From a virus: DNA of 64,000 nt. The notes beneath the pieces were generated by a model, which worked only from the letters and a program-made list of their open reading frames with translations, was not told the DNA's origin and made no database searches. Position numbers and translations under genes: made by a program. Below are positions 9,028 through 63,072 of the stretch, in pieces (the stretch's first letter is position 1; each line of letters starts with the position of its first letter). The stretch spans positions 131,164-195,163 of IMG/VR virus record IMGVR_UViG_3300032315_001604. The stretch is one strand, 5' to 3'.

Positions 9028-10656
9028 ATGAGAAGAAGAATAACAATTGACAGTTCCAGAAGCAATGACTTAAATAAAAAGATTGCCATTGTTAAAAATC
9101 TTGGATCTAATGAAATTAAAAGAGCACCTGCAAATGCTTTTTTAAATGTAAATGATGCTGTCAGTAACACATTAGGTCGAAGACAACCTGTATTTTTTGA
9201 AGTTGATGTTGATTTAAATCAAAAAGTAGAAAACGTTCTACCCAAAAAACCTTTCAGAGATATTATTCAACCATTAGAATTAGAAGAAAACAGAAATGAT
9301 ATTATAGTTACTGCAAGTCGTTTGGAACCGATCCCAACACCAACACCTACACCAACTCCTACCCCTACACCAACCCCACCACCTGCTATTTGTGTTTTTG
9401 GTGCAGGTACAAGTATTGTTAATGGAACTTATACATATTCATCAAACTTAACATATAGCAATATATATGGAATTGTTTTAAAAAGAAACGCAACAACATT
9501 AAAATGGGAAATAAATCAAAATTCAACCAATTTATACGATAACAATTATTCAGGATATGAACTTCCAACGTTTGGATGGAATGTAACAAACGGTTTGCCT
9601 AATGAGCCATCTATTTCACTTTTCCCTTGCCCGACACCTACACCATACGTAGATTTGAATATCAGTTGGAATATGTGCGGATATACTGTTACAGCATATA
9701 ATCCTTTATATAATGAAAACGACAGACCTAGAATAAACACATTTAGAACCGATGGTTCTTATGTTGTTTATATGTCAGCAGGTTATGTTTTATATAACCC
9801 ATACACATCATTAACAAGTATAGCACCATGGGGTAACAGAACTGTTGGAACAGAAAGTATAAGCATACCATTAACAGAAGGACTTTCCGCAGGAATTGAC
9901 TTATTTACAGCAATTAGCAGTATGCCAATTCCTATTTTTTCTCCAGATATATCAAATTGGTCTGTAGTTGATACAGGAAATTATAGAGAAAGAAAATATC
10001 AATTTATTGTTGGAAGTGAAGGAACATATAATATTTCTATAAATTATTGTGTACCTGTACCTACCCCAACACCAACACCAACACCTACCCCAACACCTAC
10101 CCCAACACCAACACCTACTCCTACCCCAACACCAACACCTACCCCAACACCTACCCCAACACCAACACCTACCCCAACACCTACACCTACACCAACACCA
10201 ACACCAAGTTATACCCCAACTCCTACACCAACTCCTTCTATTACACCTACCCCAACACCTACACCTACACGCACACCTGAACCATCACCTACTCCAACAC
10301 CACCCCCTACCCCAACACCGCCGCCGCCAACACCTAGTATTACTCCAACACCATCACCAAGTCCTTCACTTTCGCCATCACCAAGTCCTTCACCAAGTCC
10401 TTCACCAAGTCCTTCACTTTCGCCATCACCAAGTCCTTCACCAAGTCCTTCACCAAGTCCTTCACCAAGTCCTTCACCAAGTCCTTCACCAAGTCCTTCA
10501 CCAAGTCCTTCACCAAGTCCTTCACCAACACCGCCACCTCCTTCATCAACACCGCCACCTCCTTCATCAACACTGCCACCTCCTTCATCAACACCGCCAC
10601 CGCCAACTGAACCGCCACCTACGAAAAACGTAACAACAGCGTCAATGCCTTGGTAA
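9028..10656 (+). CDS. Pro/Thr/Ser-rich probable virion protein with long (PT)n and (PS)n tracts
   Basis: Two small beta-rich domains flanked by PT runs, and a C-terminal PT/PS/PPPSST tract; lies in the baseplate cluster. Confidence 0.7.
10060..10620 (+). repeat. Coding low-complexity repeat (CCNACN)n then (CCAAGTCCTTCA)n
   Basis: Directly visible; the PS tract uses a near-perfect 12-bp unit. Confidence 0.9.
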
Positions 10657-10671
10657 TAATAAATAATATAA

Positions 10672-12489
10672 ATGCCATACTACTATCAACAAAAAATAGC
10701 AGAAAGATATTTCACATATCATAATCTATGTCATGATGGTGAAAAAATAGAAAACAATAAGTTATATACTTTATTAGCACCTCAAAAATTTGGAACACTA
10801 GCTAAAAGTATTCCACCGTATATAACAACTAGTTTTTTATTATCTGGTGGATTGCCAACATATTATAACAACCTTGGAGCACCTGATCCTACTATCAAAT
10901 GGAGTATAGTAGAAATACCAAATCAAATACCCGATTTAAATTTGATTACACCATCAGTAACATCATCAATTCCTATAAAAATATCAACAAGAAATCAATT
11001 TAGCTATCCGTTTTCGATGGTCATAAGAAATATGTATTTCAAATTTAGATATTATATGACGCATCCCGCATCAGCAGCAAAGTTAAATCAGCCGAATCCT
11101 ACTGGACGTTGGATATATAGCAGAAAACCAGCATTTATAGAATATTTTACAAGATTTAATTATTTTAATTACGACTTTAAAAGAAAATATACCAATAATA
11201 CTGTTTTATCTGCATATGGTGTAGATTTAGATTCATATTATTATAACATTGTAGCATCAGACAGTAATAAAAATGTAACATATAAAGAAGTTAATGTTAC
11301 ATCAACAGATTTTATTGATAATAATACAATAAAAGAATCTTTAAGTGGTTCATTTTTAAGTAATAATATAAATTCAAATATTAGAATATATCCTTTTAAT
11401 TATGATTTATCAACACATCCTATTGATTTAAATACAGCCTTTGGCCATAAAGTTCGTTTATCAGAAAAAAATTTATTAGTTAGTGATCCTTTATCAGGCA
11501 ATGGTAGAATATATGTTTATGCTTTAAACAAATATATAACAGGAAATAAAATATTGCCTGATAAAATTTTGACATCAAATTTTGTTTTATCAGGATTTGG
11601 TAATGTTATAGAATATAAAGAAGTTAGAGATAAATCTAACAAAACATATAAAGAAGTTCTTGCCGTTTCAACACAAACAGCAAACAATTCAAGCGTTGAA
11701 ATTTTTAGTAATAATTTTGTTACTAAGATAAGTGGAGTAAAAATGTTTAATCTTTTGAATATTTCTATAAGCGGTCAAAGATTTAGAAACGTTTGGTTTT
11801 CCAAAGGAATTAATCAAGAAAACTTAAGTGGTACTGGTTATTATGGTTATGATTTAGGATTACAAGTACCAGATACTACTTTTAATAAAACAACAAACGT
11901 TTTATATGTCAGTGAACCATATAACAATCAAGGAATTGTATATGTTTATGGTTATCATAATTTTACAAATACTTGGAATTATATCACATCATTATCTTCC
12001 GCAAGTGCATTAAATTATGGAAAAAGTATTTCAGTAAGTGGACCATATGCAATTGTATCTGCTCCAAATAGTATTATAAGCGGTGTTACAGGAGCATTAA
12101 TAGATGTTTATAAATTTAGCACCTCAGATTTAAACGGTGTTCCATTATCCGCAGGTACAGCATTATTTTTAGACGGTGAACAATACGGTTTTTACACTTT
12201 AGAAAAAACCGATGAAATTTTTATTCCGTCAAATAAAAATTTAGGAAAACATATTGATTATAATGAAAATCAGTTAACAACTAATTTTTTAAATAGAAAA
12301 AATATAAATTTTTACGGAAACCATTTAGCTATTACTGGAGATAATAAAACAGAAATATACACAAGATATTTTGATAAATTTGAAAAAAATTGTCAAATAT
12401 CTTCTGCAACAAAAAGTAAAATTTGGGAAAATATAACATATCAAATAAGTAATAGTGCAGTATTTTTAAATGCTGCAAGAGTTCTTTGA
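10672..12489 (+). CDS. Probable virion structural protein with FG-GAP-like propeller repeats
   Basis: FGHKVRLS..LLVSDP..GRIYVY, YGKSISVSGPYAIVSAP; TAAATA at 10660-10665. Confidence 0.65.
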   Translation: MPYYYQQKIAERYFTYHNLCHDGEKIENNKLYTLLAPQKFGTLAKSIPPYITTSFLLSGGLPTYYNNLGAPDPTIKWSIVEIPNQIPDLNLITPSVTSSIPIKISTRNQFSYPFSMVIRNMYFKFRYYMTHPASAAKLNQPNPTGRWIYSRKPAFIEYFTRFNYFNYDFKRKYTNNTVLSAYGVDLDSYYYNIVASDSNKNVTYKEVNVTSTDFIDNNTIKESLSGSFLSNNINSNIRIYPFNYDLSTHPIDLNTAFGHKVRLSEKNLLVSDPLSGNGRIYVYALNKYITGNKILPDKILTSNFVLSGFGNVIEYKEVRDKSNKTYKEVLAVSTQTANNSSVEIFSNNFVTKISGVKMFNLLNISISGQRFRNVWFSKGINQENLSGTGYYGYDLGLQVPDTTFNKTTNVLYVSEPYNNQGIVYVYGYHNFTNTWNYITSLSSASALNYGKSISVSGPYAIVSAPNSIISGVTGALIDVYKFSTSDLNGVPLSAGTALFLDGEQYGFYTLEKTDEIFIPSNKNLGKHIDYNENQLTTNFLNRKNINFYGNHLAITGDNKTEIYTRYFDKFEKNCQISSATKSKIWENITYQISNSAVFLNAARVL

Positions 12490-12851
12490 TAGATAACATT
12501 TAAGATTGGGAGAATTCGGTGAAACTCTTCTAAAGAAGACAATACCGAGCCGAGCCGTTTTTAGGATAAAGGGAAACGGAAGGTGTAGAGACTAGAGGAT
12601 GAGCCTAACAATAAGCCTCACAAGAACCCAACAATTTTATATTTGCGAAAATATAAAAATTGAAGATATAGTCCAAACTTTATGGTGACATAAAGATTAA
12701 TAAAATGACGCTTCTAAACGGCAACGTCCACGGACATCAGCGCAAACTGGAGGTACGCCCCTTTGGCGGCGTTACCAAAAGGGCTTAGAAACAGTGGCTG
12801 GCTCCACCAAGGTACAAAAACGTGCCACATTAAATGTTATCTATTAAAGAA
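12482..12851 (+). ncRNA. Group I self-splicing ribozyme, predicted circularly permuted (break in loop L2)
   Basis: P4 UUCGGU 12515-20/ACCGAG 12544-49; P5 UCUUC-UAAA-GAAGA; P6/P6a; P7 GAGACUA 12588-94/UAGUCC 12669-74; J8/7 GAAGAUA; P3 UUGGG 12506-10/CCCAA 12627-31; P8 with GCGA loop; P9 CUUUAUG-GUGA-CAUAAAG; omega-G 12707; downstream P1 12811-26; 22-bp closing helix 12482-12503/12830-12851. Confidence is high for the group I core and somewhat lower for the permutation. Confidence 0.88.
12708..12813 (+). ncRNA. Predicted 106-nt circularised exon, a structured GC-rich RNA
   Basis: Lies between omega-G and the P1 U.G pair; stems UUCUAA/UUAGAA, GCCCcUUUGG/CCAAAaGGGC, GUGG/CCAC, UCAG/CUGG. Confidence 0.6.
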
Positions 12852-13425
12852 ACTTAACTTTTTTCTGTTTATACAATTTTTGTATAATATTTTTTTCCCA
12901 ATCTCCATCATGTTCTTTGGGTTTAGTATAAGATTTTTTAACCCAATAATGATGTTGATTTGACAAATCTTTTGAGAAATTATCAAGTCCTGCAATATAC
13001 ACGCTATCGTATAAATTTTCTAAAAGCCAAGAAATAACTAAAACTCCACTAGAAGGAATTAAATTATCCGCTTTTTCTTTTAATAAAGTTTCTTCTTTTA
13101 ATTTTTTTCTTAAACTATGATAAAACGATAAAGGAATTCTCCATATTTGTTTTGGCGTATAGGGAGGATTTCCAGAATCTCCATGAACATAAAGAATTTT
13201 GTTGGGTCGAATATCATCATCTGTCGGTATTTGTTTATCTCCCAAAGTACACCATACTGTTGTTTTACTGCCTACATATTTCTCATAACCTTTTATAGCA
13301 AATTTATTAAATCTAAAAATTGTATCAAAACTATCAATTATTTTACCTTTTTTTTGAAACAGTAAAGAAGGTCCATTTCCTATAATAATAGCAGAATTTT
13401 CTTTTTTTAATTCTAATGGATTCAT
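12844..13425 (-). CDS. GT29 (sialyltransferase-like) glycosyltransferase family protein; start at 13425 or 13452
   Basis: AIIIGNGPSLL..GKIIDSFDTIFRFN, PSSGVLVI, VYIAGLD, HHYW, HD..WE. Confidence 0.75.
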   Translation of the reverse strand: MNPLELKKENSAIIIGNGPSLLFQKKGKIIDSFDTIFRFNKFAIKGYEKYVGSKTTVWCTLGDKQIPTDDDIRPNKILYVHGDSGNPPYTPKQIWRIPLSFYHSLRKKLKEETLLKEKADNLIPSSGVLVISWLLENLYDSVYIAGLDNFSKDLSNQHHYWVKKSYTKPKEHDGDWEKNIIQKLYKQKKVKFL

Positions 13426-13430
13426 ATAGA

Positions 13431-13454
13431 TTTTGCGTAAATAATTACGCAAAA
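13431..13454. promoter_or_regulatory. Perfect 10-bp inverted repeat between divergent genes
   Basis: TTTTGCGTAA-ATAA-TTACGCAAAA. Confidence 0.5.
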
Positions 13455-58936: not shown

Positions 58937-59012
58937 GGCGCAGTAGTCCAATGGCAGAGACAACAGACTTAAAATCTGTCAAGTGTGGGTTCGAGTCCCA
59001 CCTGCGCTACCA
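58937..59012 (+). tRNA. trnL: tRNA-Leu(UAA) with short variable loop, CCA encoded
   Basis: Acceptor GGCGCAG/CTGCGCT; anticodon arm ACAGA-CTTAAAA-TCTGT; T arm GTGGG-TTCGAGT-CCCAC; ends ACCA. Confidence 0.9.
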
Positions 59013-62923: not shown

Positions 62924-62996
62924 GCGTTTGTAGCTCAGTGGATAGAGCAGTAGCCTTCTAAGCTATTGGTCGCAGGTTCGATCCCTGCCAAACGCG
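62924..62996 (+). tRNA. trnR: tRNA-Arg(UCU), CCA not encoded
   Basis: Acceptor GCGTTTG/CAAACGC; anticodon loop CTTCTAA; T loop TTCGATC. Confidence 0.95.
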
Positions 62997-63000
62997 CATA

Positions 63001-63072
63001 GGGTTGGTAGCTCAAAGGTAGAGCAGTGCCCTTTTAAGGCATTGGTTGAGAGTTCGAATCTCTCCCAACCCA
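63001..63072 (+). tRNA. trnK: tRNA-Lys(UUU), CCA not encoded
   Basis: Acceptor GGGTTGG/CCAACCC; anticodon loop CTTTTAA; T loop TTCGAAT. Confidence 0.95.

What the first reader, a model, noticed from the sequence alone, without database searches (positions are those of the whole stretch)
12482..12851. Candidate natural circularly permuted group I intron that would produce a circular RNA
Seen: a full group I catalytic core (P3-P9, G-binding P7 GAGACUA/UAGUCC, J8/7 GAAGAUA, GNRA loops on P8 and P9) sits between two convergent genes instead of splitting an ORF. After omega-G 12707 come 106 nt and then a P1-like hairpin, GGU|AC-AAAAAC-GUGCC (12811-12826), with U12813.G12824. The guide CGU (12821-23) is complementary to the first exon bases ACG (12708-10), which would form P10. 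After a 3-nt linker, 12830-12851 pairs with 12482-12503 over 22 bp with one G.U, and the upstream strand ends 2 nt before P3. That is exactly the P1-J1/2-P2-J2/3-P3 topology of a normal intron opened at loop L2. Established: permuted intron-exon constructs engineered from group I introns (T4 td, Anabaena tRNA-Leu) circularise their exon, and natural permuted group II introns are known. I do not recall a described natural group I case. Inference: GTP attack at U12813 and ligation to A12708 give a 106-nt circle with the junction CCAAGGU|ACGCUUC.
Basis: partly seen in the sequence, partly recalled or inferred. Interest (0 to 1): 0.96.

Follow-up and report, generated by a model that had tools for sequence, protein, structure and literature searches.

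The report
Back-to-front self-splicing ribozyme in phage
A family of uncultured T4-like phages encodes a group I self-splicing ribozyme with its two halves in swapped order around a small structured RNA, a layout that should release that RNA as a circle, which is the trick engineers use to make circular RNA.

Summary
Rfam Intron_gpI matches 12452-12695 at 80.3 bits, and 65.4 bits without the upstream hairpin. I collected 12 lineages of the same locus from metagenomes; the flanking protein is down to about 35% identical or less. All 12 keep the complete permuted layout:
- core P3-P9;
- omega-G 8-12 nt after P9;
- a 72-130 nt exon that is GC-rich in 11 of 12 lineages;
- a downstream hairpin GGGU|A..UGCCC with an invariant U.G;
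- a guide that also pairs with the first exon bases (P10, 2-7 bp, fully compensated in L013);
- a long closing helix (95.6% paired, 7 of 22 pairs changed on both sides).

The rival upstream P1 (U12461.G12472), which Rfam aligns, is not conserved. Using it would also delete protein-conserved C-terminal residues. Conventional relatives of the core, tRNA-Phe introns in MAG contigs, have an ordinary capped P2 and follow the same P1/P10/omega-G rules.

The exon is a covarying structured RNA. It is non-coding and not tRNA-like.

No RNA evidence could be obtained, so catalysis and the circle remain inferred (confidence about 0.7). The only published precedent I found is the coral mitochondrial ND5-717 intron, which is permuted only in its transcript. 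This scan has already noted permuted group I ribozymes on other DNA, but those have coding exons.

The parts
10672..12489 (+). 605-aa structural-module ORF whose mRNA carries the ribozyme at its 3' end. Its last codons and stop codon lie in the long helix.
   Evidence: ORF list. 11 homologues plus distant ones, all followed by the ribozyme. No Pfam or PHROG family.
12456..12477 (+). Upstream hairpin that Rfam aligns as P1 (U12461.G12472). It is not a conserved family feature and is probably not the splice site.
   Evidence: It adds about 15 bits. Its inner six pairs are only 66.7% paired across relatives, and the U.G is lost in L011, L012, L013 and L007. Rfam picks non-homologous helices in L013, L007 and L018.
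12482..12503 (+). 3' strand of P2 (the opened-L2 closing helix). It contains the stop codon at 12487-12489.
   Evidence: 22 bp with 12830-12851. 95.6% of cells paired, 7 pairs with double-sided changes, 0 of 500 shuffles reach this.
12504..12505 (+). J2/3 (GA)
   Evidence: Read from the sequence. The same spacing holds in all lineages.
12506..12695 (+). Group I catalytic core P3-P9, with the P7 G-site, J8/7, a P7.1-type insert, and GNRA-capped P8 and P9.
   Evidence: Rfam RF00028 at 65.4-80.3 bits here and 73-84 bits in five relatives. P3 is 100% paired with 2 double-sided changes.
12696..12707 (+). J9/10 ending in omega-G (G12707), the 3' splice site.
   Evidence: The G followed by (A/G)C is conserved in 12 of 12 lineages, 8-12 nt after P9. 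Conventional tRNA-Phe introns have 10-12 nt.
12708..12813 (+). Exon: a 106-nt GC-rich structured non-coding RNA, the predicted circle, with junction ..CCAAGGU|ACGCUUC..
   Evidence: GC 0.57 against 0.26 in the flank. A covarying long-range stem and hairpins. No reading frame. Not tRNA- or tmRNA-like.
12811..12826 (+). P1 hairpin. The 5' splice site follows U12813 (U.G with G12824). The internal guide 12821-12826 serves both P1 and P10.
   Evidence: U.G in 12 of 12 lineages, with an outer pair G-C to A-U swap in L009. P10 is 2-7 bp and fully compensated in L013.
12827..12829 (+). J1/2 (ACA; 2 nt in most relatives)
12830..12851 (+). 5' strand of P2. It overlaps the last 8 nt of the minus-strand GT29 gene.
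   Evidence: It is conserved also in L004, L011, L018 and L020, which lack the GT29 gene.

Best explanation
This is a DNA-encoded, circularly permuted group I ribozyme: a natural permuted intron-exon unit opened at loop L2. It sits at the 3' end of a structural-gene mRNA in a deep-branching T4-like phage.

Order on the transcript: ORF end / P2 3' strand, J2/3, P3-P9, omega-G12707, exon 12708-12813, P1 (5' splice site after U12813), J1/2, P2 5' strand.

Inferred mechanism:
1. The 22-bp P2 brings the two intron pieces together.
2. Free GTP in the P7 site attacks after U12813.
3. The guide then exchanges its P1 extension for P10 with A12708-C-G.
4. Omega-G enters the G site, and the 3'-OH of U12813 attacks after G12707.

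Predicted products: a 106-nt non-coding circular RNA; the ORF mRNA ending in the folded ribozyme core at G12707; and a short 3' fragment that begins with the added G.

Because the stop codon lies inside P2, terminating ribosomes should melt the helix, so translation and circle formation are probably coupled (speculative).

Shown here: the core, the layout, and its conservation and covariation. Inferred: catalysis, the circle, and any function of the circle.
For: - Core: Rfam RF00028 scores 80.3 bits, and 65.4 bits without the upstream hairpin.
- Conservation: 12 lineages of the locus, with the flanking protein down to about 35% identity or less, all keep the permuted layout.
- P2: 95.6% of cells paired; 7 of 22 pairs changed on both sides; 0 of 500 shuffles and no slid register come close. 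It is long in every lineage, with 2-3 nt junctions.
- Downstream P1: U.G in 12 of 12 lineages, with one compensated outer pair in L009.
- P10: contiguous with P1 on the same guide, 2-7 bp. In L013 the exon ACUUUUG pairs with the guide UAAAAGU, which fits no other lineage's partner.
- Omega-G: conserved, at the same distance from P9 as in conventional relatives.
- Conventional comparator: tRNA-Phe(GAA) introns L023-L025 share the core collinearly. They have a local GAAA-capped P2 and obey the same P1/P10 rule.
- Exon: an independently covarying structured RNA, with double-sided changes at 5 of the 6 pairs of its long-range stem.
- Protein tail: the ORF's C-terminal tail is conserved as protein in distant homologues, so it is not removed by splicing.
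Against:
- P1 is nearly invariant, so it offers little covariation: one swap in L009, and an A.A mismatch in the window itself.
- P10 is only 2-3 bp in 6 of 12 lineages. Own guide-exon pairs are only modestly better than mismatched ones (mean 4.2 against 3.4).
- In the window's close relatives an upstream hairpin with a U.G and one compensated pair exists, so some conventional or aberrant use cannot be excluded.
- Ribosomes reaching the stop codon inside P2 might prevent folding in vivo.
Confidence: 0.7

Rival explanations
1. The ribozyme is active, but its selected role is mRNA processing: cutting the late transcript at U12813 and/or G12707 to create a stable, structured 3' end or to separate cistrons. 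On this view the circle is an unselected by-product, or is not made at all because only the first step or omega-G hydrolysis happens.
For: The element always sits at the end of the same ORF, with the stop codon in or next to P2. In L004, L011, L018 and L020 the next gene is co-directional, so cleavage would separate cistrons. Exon length (72-130 nt) and sequence vary between deep lineages.
Against: The exon is GC-rich in 11 of 12 lineages and has its own covarying stems, which points to selection on the exon RNA itself. The P10 complementarity, compensated in L013, is needed only for exon ligation.
Confidence: 0.15
2. It is a conventional group I intron. It splices from the upstream P1 (after U12461) to omega-G12707, and the downstream hairpin and long helix are peripheral structure.
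For: Rfam aligns the full model using this hairpin, which adds 15 bits. The hairpin has 9-10 bp with a U.G in the window and its close relatives, and a U-A to C-G swap through two synonymous changes in L004.
Against: - The inner six pairs are only 66.7% paired across the family, and the U.G is lost in L011, L012, L013 and L007.
- Rfam's P1 is a different helix in L013, L007 and L018, and none is evident in L020.
- Splicing would delete C-terminal residues conserved as protein in distant homologues. It would append a non-conserved tail: RF* in the window, and a long read-through in L004 (sequence).
- P10 with this guide is 1 bp.
- The hairpin hangs on the far end of a 22-bp P2, away from the core.
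- No intron-less allele was found among the 12 lineages.
Confidence: 0.05
3. It is an inactive relic of an intron lying next to an unrelated structured small RNA gene. On this view the conservation reflects RNA structure used for something other than catalysis, such as transcript stability or termination.
For: No catalytic evidence exists. The upstream hairpin plus a T-rich tract is the only terminator-like site found.
Against: The catalytic elements are nearly invariant across lineages whose flanking protein has diverged to about 35% identity. These are the P7 strands, J8/7, J4/5-type segments, omega-G and the U.G pair. Rfam scores stay at 73-84 bits. A relic would decay.
Confidence: 0.07

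Closest known systems
Engineered permuted intron-exon (PIE) constructs from T4 td and Anabaena pre-tRNA group I introns (established knowledge; reviewed in e.g. PMC4344496 and PMC11394858)
   Same: The order is the same: 3' intron half, exon, 5' intron half. The predicted two-step chemistry and the circular exon are the same. A long helix holds the halves together, as designed homology arms do, and an exon-internal stem brings the splice sites close.
   Different: This one is natural and conserved in a phage lineage. It is opened at L2 rather than at the loops used in the engineered constructs (from my own recollection, P6a for T4 td and P8 for Anabaena; not checked here). The exon is a small structured non-coding RNA. 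The 5' piece is the end of a translated mRNA, with the stop codon inside P2.
ND5-717 group I intron of corallimorpharian mitochondria (Chi et al. 2019, PMC6545197)
   Same: A natural group I ribozyme that back-splices from a permuted precursor and gives a circular exon-containing RNA.
   Different: In that case the DNA order is conventional: a giant 18-19 kb intron holding most of a circular mitochondrial genome within P8. Only a small primary transcript is permuted, and the circle is an intermediate of ND5 mRNA maturation. Here the permutation is in the DNA, the unit is about 400 nt, and the exon is non-coding.
Natural circularly permuted group II introns of bacteria (Roth et al. 2021, PMC8637638)
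   Same: A compact, DNA-encoded permuted self-splicing ribozyme that does not interrupt an ORF and releases a small RNA circle of unknown function.
   Different: A different ribozyme class and chemistry: branching versus attack by an exogenous G. Roth et al. state that those elements never precisely abut an ORF, whereas this one always overlaps an ORF's stop codon.
Conventional bacterial tRNA-Phe(GAA) group I introns (L023-L025, MAG contigs) and HNH-carrying phage introns (Vibrio phage 1.193.O, Shewanella phage 1/40)
   Same: The P3-P9 core sequence is closely related and collinear, including the P7.1-type insert. The distance from P9 to omega-G is the same, and so is the P1/P10 guide logic.
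   Different: Those have P1 and a capped local P2 upstream of P3. They interrupt a tRNA or protein gene and restore it by splicing.
Permuted group I ribozymes with stop-less coding exons noted earlier in this scan (e1-2303837, e1-4042705, e1-4042550, e1-4043049; AI notes)
   Same: The same idea: swapped halves around a short exon in phage or bacterial DNA.
   Different: Those exons are read as endless circular mRNAs. Here the exon has no usable frame: its length is not a multiple of 3 in 7 of 12 lineages, and every frame carries stops in 8 of 12. I did not compare the sequences directly; a word look-up found no shared stretch.

Membership tests
Group I intron (Rfam RF00028) | Conserved catalytic core P3-P9 with the P7 G-binding site and J8/7 | tested here: met
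   80.3 bits with the upstream hairpin and 65.4 bits without it, against a gathering score of 50. 73-84 bits in L007, L011, L012, L013 and L018.
Group I intron (Rfam RF00028) | P1 helix with a U.G wobble at the 5' splice site, formed with an internal guide sequence | tested here: met
   Present in 12 of 12 lineages, but downstream of the core (12811-26 in the window).
Group I intron (Rfam RF00028) | Terminal omega-G, and P10 between the guide and the 3' exon | tested here: met
   The G is conserved 8-12 nt after P9. P10 is 2-7 bp, contiguous with P1 on the guide, and compensated in L013.
Group I intron (Rfam RF00028) | Linear order P1-P2-P3...P9, inserted in a host gene whose exons are rejoined | tested here: not met
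   P1 and one P2 strand lie 3' of the exon. No gene is interrupted: the flanking ORF is complete and its tail is conserved as protein. All 12 lineages carry the element, and no intron-less allele was found.
Group I intron (Rfam RF00028) | GTP-dependent self-splicing | not testable with these tools
   Needs biochemistry.
Permuted intron-exon (circle-forming) ribozyme | The 3' intron part lies upstream of the exon and the 5' intron part downstream, joined by a helix interrupted at a loop | tested here: met
   The layout is in 12 of 12 lineages. P2 covaries. The conventional comparator has a capped P2 at the same place.
Permuted intron-exon (circle-forming) ribozyme | A covalently closed exon product | not testable with these tools
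   No RNA data were accessible. Contig L003 ends exactly at the predicted 5' splice site, but contig ends are unreliable here.
Circular mRNA type of permuted group I (earlier notes of this scan) | The exon carries a stop-less frame whose length is a multiple of 3 | tested here: not met
   the length is not a multiple of 3 in 7 of 12 lineages, every frame carries stops in 8 of 12, and 5 of 12 (the window among them) have no ATG.

The most novel reading that the evidence does not exclude
T4-like phages have evolved their own permuted intron-exon device whose selected product is a small, nuclease-resistant, non-coding circular RNA. That RNA would have a role of its own in infection, for example as a decoy or regulator. 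Its production would be gated by ribosomes terminating inside P2, so that circle output reports on translation of a late structural gene.
Probability: 0.3. Interest if true: 0.92.

Novelty: new variant of a known kind. Interest (0 to 1): 0.85.

Why it matters
Permuted group I introns are the standard way to manufacture circular RNA, and they have been regarded as a laboratory invention. A compact natural version, conserved across a whole phage lineage, would matter for several reasons.
- It would show that evolution reached the same design.
- It would add group I to the natural circle-forming ribozymes, alongside permuted group II introns.
- It would offer a new scaffold: opened at L2, with a long P2 and a short exon, probably active at low temperature given its apparently cold and marine sources.
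- It would define a new class of phage non-coding circular RNA whose function can be tested.
- It shows that standard Rfam annotation mislabels such elements as ordinary introns, or misses them altogether.

Tried and rejected
- Circle as a permuted tRNA or tmRNA (suggested by the tRNA-intron relatives): ARAGORN finds nothing in the doubled exons of all 12 lineages, while the control finds tRNA-Phe with its intron. Rejected.
- Circle as an endless mRNA (as in earlier scan notes): rejected.
- Known RNA family for the exon: no Rfam hit of any weight. A permuted match cannot be excluded.
- Antisense target or second copy in the 195-kb phage genome: only chance-level matches of 10-15 nt.
- The AGGUACGC repeat inside the exon (note e1-5772730): present in the window but not conserved in relatives (exon list), so probably coincidence.
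- Contig ends as evidence of RNA ends: L003 ends exactly at the 5' splice-site U and L016 one base before it. But contigs here also break at repeats and at variable loops, and the run types are unknown. Not used as evidence.
- Viral-contig scans and INPHARED searches: no further members. No cultured phage carries the element or the flanking gene.
- Literature searches: no compact natural permuted group I ribozyme in bacteria or phages. All 'circularly permuted group I' hits were group II, because the search matches word starts.
Full report
**What is there**

The window is part of a 195-kb IMG/VR virus record with 31% GC. It encodes T4-type gp23 capsid, scaffold, gp44 clamp loader and baseplate wedge proteins. 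Its capsid is only about 34% identical to the nearest cultured phages, the cyanomyophages.

Between ORF 10672-12489 (605 aa, no family) and a minus-strand GT29 glycosyltransferase gene (12844-13452) lies a stretch that folds far better than shuffles (z = -7.55). Rfam's Intron_gpI model matches 12452-12695 at 80.3 bits (E 8e-21) when the region is scanned on its own. The window-wide scan with default filters missed it. It is the only such match in the genome.

- omega-G12707;
- the hairpin 12811-12826 with U12813.G12824;
- CGU 12821-23 complementary to ACG 12708-10;
- a 22-bp helix 12482-12503/12830-12851 with one G.U, ending 2 nt before P3.

**Two candidate 5' splice sites**

Rfam's alignment uses a conventional hairpin upstream (12456-12477, U12461.G12472), inside the last codons of the ORF. 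Without it the core still scores 65.4 bits, so it contributes about 15 bits, roughly what any 9-bp hairpin placed there would add.

**Comparative data**

The ORF has homologues of about 600 aa in metagenomes and more distant ones by profile search. I recovered the DNA for 12 distinct lineages: the window, L002, L004, L006, L009, L010, L011, L012 (same as L017), L013 (close to L016), L007 (same as L008), L018 (same as L019) and L020. Every one has a 340-435 nt gap after the gene. Every gap contains the ribozyme core, either by Rfam at 73-84 bits or by near-identity in the alignment. No allele without the element was found.

**The permuted layout is conserved and covaries**

In all 12 lineages the order is: ORF end, one strand of a long helix, 2 nt, P3-P9, a G 8-12 nt after P9, an exon of 72-130 nt, GGGU|A..UGCCC, 2-3 nt, the other strand of the long helix.

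- Long helix: 95.6% of cells are paired, and 7 of 22 pairs show changes on both sides. No shuffle (0 of 500) and no slid register (38-43% paired) approaches this. The helix is also kept in the four lineages that lack the GT29 gene, so coding constraint from that gene does not explain it.
- Downstream hairpin: the U.G is kept in 12 of 12 lineages. The outer pair is G-C in ten, A-U in L009 and A.A in the window.
- P10: the guide bases immediately 5' of the wobble G pair with the first exon bases, over 2-7 contiguous pairs. In L013 the exon starts ACUUUUG and the guide reads UAAAAGU, a combination that fits no other lineage's partner. Averaged over all lineages, own pairs beat mismatched ones only modestly (4.2 against 3.4), because A-U and C-G are invariant.

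**The upstream hairpin is not conserved**

Its inner six pairs, which include the putative splice-site wobble, are 66.7% paired with no double-sided change. The U.G is U.U in L011 and L012 and is absent in L013 and L007. In L013 Rfam's P1 is instead a pairing with the long helix's own strand. In L007 and L018 it contains several non-canonical pairs. In L020 the stop codon is 8 nt before P3 and no upstream hairpin is evident.

The residues it encodes (..SAV.LNAA..) continue a C-terminal tail that is conserved as protein in distant homologues (..SNVIRGNFAKLQN..NNTIIASLANKL..SNIIEMNVARQI). Splicing from U12461 would delete this tail and attach a non-conserved one. P10 for that guide is a single pair. 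Within the window's own sub-lineage the hairpin is kept, with one compensated pair in L004, so a local role cannot be excluded: stacking on the open end of P2, or a minor alternative site.

**A conventional comparator**

An invariant core motif also hit three MAG contigs. These carry tRNA-Phe(GAA) genes interrupted at position 34 by 245-248 nt group I introns. Their cores align collinearly with the phage element from P3 to P9. They have P1, then a local P2 hairpin capped by GAAA, then P3. Their omega-G lies 10-12 nt after P9. Their 3' exon GAAAA pairs with the guide UUUUC next to the wobble G. The phage element is therefore what this kind of intron looks like when L2 is opened and the exons are joined on the other side.

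Two cultured-phage matches (Vibrio phage 1.193.O and Shewanella phage 1/40) are ordinary HNH-carrying introns splitting genes.

**The exon**

- Composition: 45-62% GC in 11 of 12 lineages, against 26-36% in the flanking gene.
- Structure: a consensus fold of nine members gives a 6-bp long-range stem near the exon's 5' end, pairing with a segment about 25 nt before its 3' end, with double-sided changes at 5 of 6 pairs. There is also a small UNCG-type hairpin with a C-G/U-A swap, and a hairpin whose sequence differs in every lineage. The stem brings the two splice sites close together.
- Not coding, not tRNA- or tmRNA-like when circularised in silico, and without a known Rfam family.
- No antisense target in the phage genome. 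Its function is unknown.

**Mechanism proposed, and what is inferred**

Shown: a group I core, and a conserved, covarying permuted arrangement containing every element needed for both transesterifications.

Inferred:
1. GTP attacks after U12813.
2. P1 is exchanged for P10 on the same guide.
3. U12813-OH attacks after G12707.
4. This yields a 106-nt circle, an ORF mRNA ending in the folded core, and a short G-capped 3' fragment.

In 10 of 12 lineages the stop codon lies inside the P2 strand, which suggests that ribosome traffic and ribozyme folding interfere with each other. This is speculation. In lineages where the next gene is co-directional, the reaction would also separate cistrons, which supports the weaker rival that processing, not the circle, is the selected outcome.

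**Comparison with what is known**

- Engineered PIE constructs work this way.
- Natural permuted group II introns are known (PMC8637638).
- The one published natural group I back-splicing case is ND5-717 of mushroom corals (PMC6545197). There the DNA order is conventional and only the transcript is permuted.
- Five searches of the paper library found no compact, DNA-level permuted group I ribozyme in bacteria or phages. The library lacks most subscription journals, so this is not proof of absence.
- Earlier notes of this scan report permuted group I elements on other DNA with stop-less coding exons. The present family differs in having a non-coding structured exon and in being fused to the end of an ORF.

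**Verdict**

I put 0.7 on a circle-forming permuted ribozyme, 0.15 on a processing-only role, 0.05 on conventional splicing from the upstream hairpin and 0.07 on an inactive relic. It is a new variant of a known kind, of high interest.

Noticed in passing
window 10059-10601 (inside ORF 9028-10656): The gene upstream of the 605-aa ORF ends in about 190 residues of (TP)n/(SP)n repeats, encoded by GC-rich 12-30 nt tandem repeats. Nearly all metagenomic contigs of this locus break 115-190 nt before the 605-aa gene, that is, in these repeats.
   Followed up: partly
L003 end (2267) and L016 end (2267): Contig L003 (Logan SRR28148174) ends exactly at the predicted 5' splice-site U (..CCACCAGGGT), and the Tara contig L016 ends one base before it. 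A sister run (L002) reads through. This could reflect an RNA end or junction, or strain variation in the L1 loop; the run types are unknown.
   Followed up: partly
window 12844-13452 (-): A GT29 (sialyltransferase-family) gene is inserted antisense right after the ribozyme in the window, L002, L006, L009, L010 and L007. It is absent in L004, L011, L018 and L020, where a co-directional gene follows. This is a moron-like presence/absence pattern.
   Followed up: partly
L023 265-582, L024 3328-3647, L025 92-412: tRNA-Phe(GAA) genes, in contigs binned as Candidatus Falkowbacteria and as an uncultured gammaproteobacterium, carry 245-248 nt group I introns at position 34. Their cores are closely related to the phage ribozyme.
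   Followed up: partly
L013 2784-2824: In L013 an upstream segment GCUGUUAAA can pair with UUUGACAGC, the 5' strand of the long helix. Rfam takes this pairing for P1. It is a possible competitor helix that would block P2.
   Followed up: no
window 12483-12492 and equivalents: The motif UCUUUGA(Y)AG is conserved at nucleotide level in 11 of 12 lineages, although it is read in different frames or lies after the stop codon. In L007 and L018 its outer part is not paired with the 3' strand. It may have a role beyond P2.
   Followed up: no
window 12452-12695; loci L002, L004, L006, L009, L010, L020: Rfam's default speed filters miss this ribozyme in long inputs, although it scores 80 bits when scanned alone. 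AT-rich group I elements of this kind are probably under-annotated.
   Followed up: yes
window 58937-59009, 62924-63072: Three tRNA genes lie near the end of the window. The distant relative L007 also has tRNA clusters flanking its locus.
   Followed up: no
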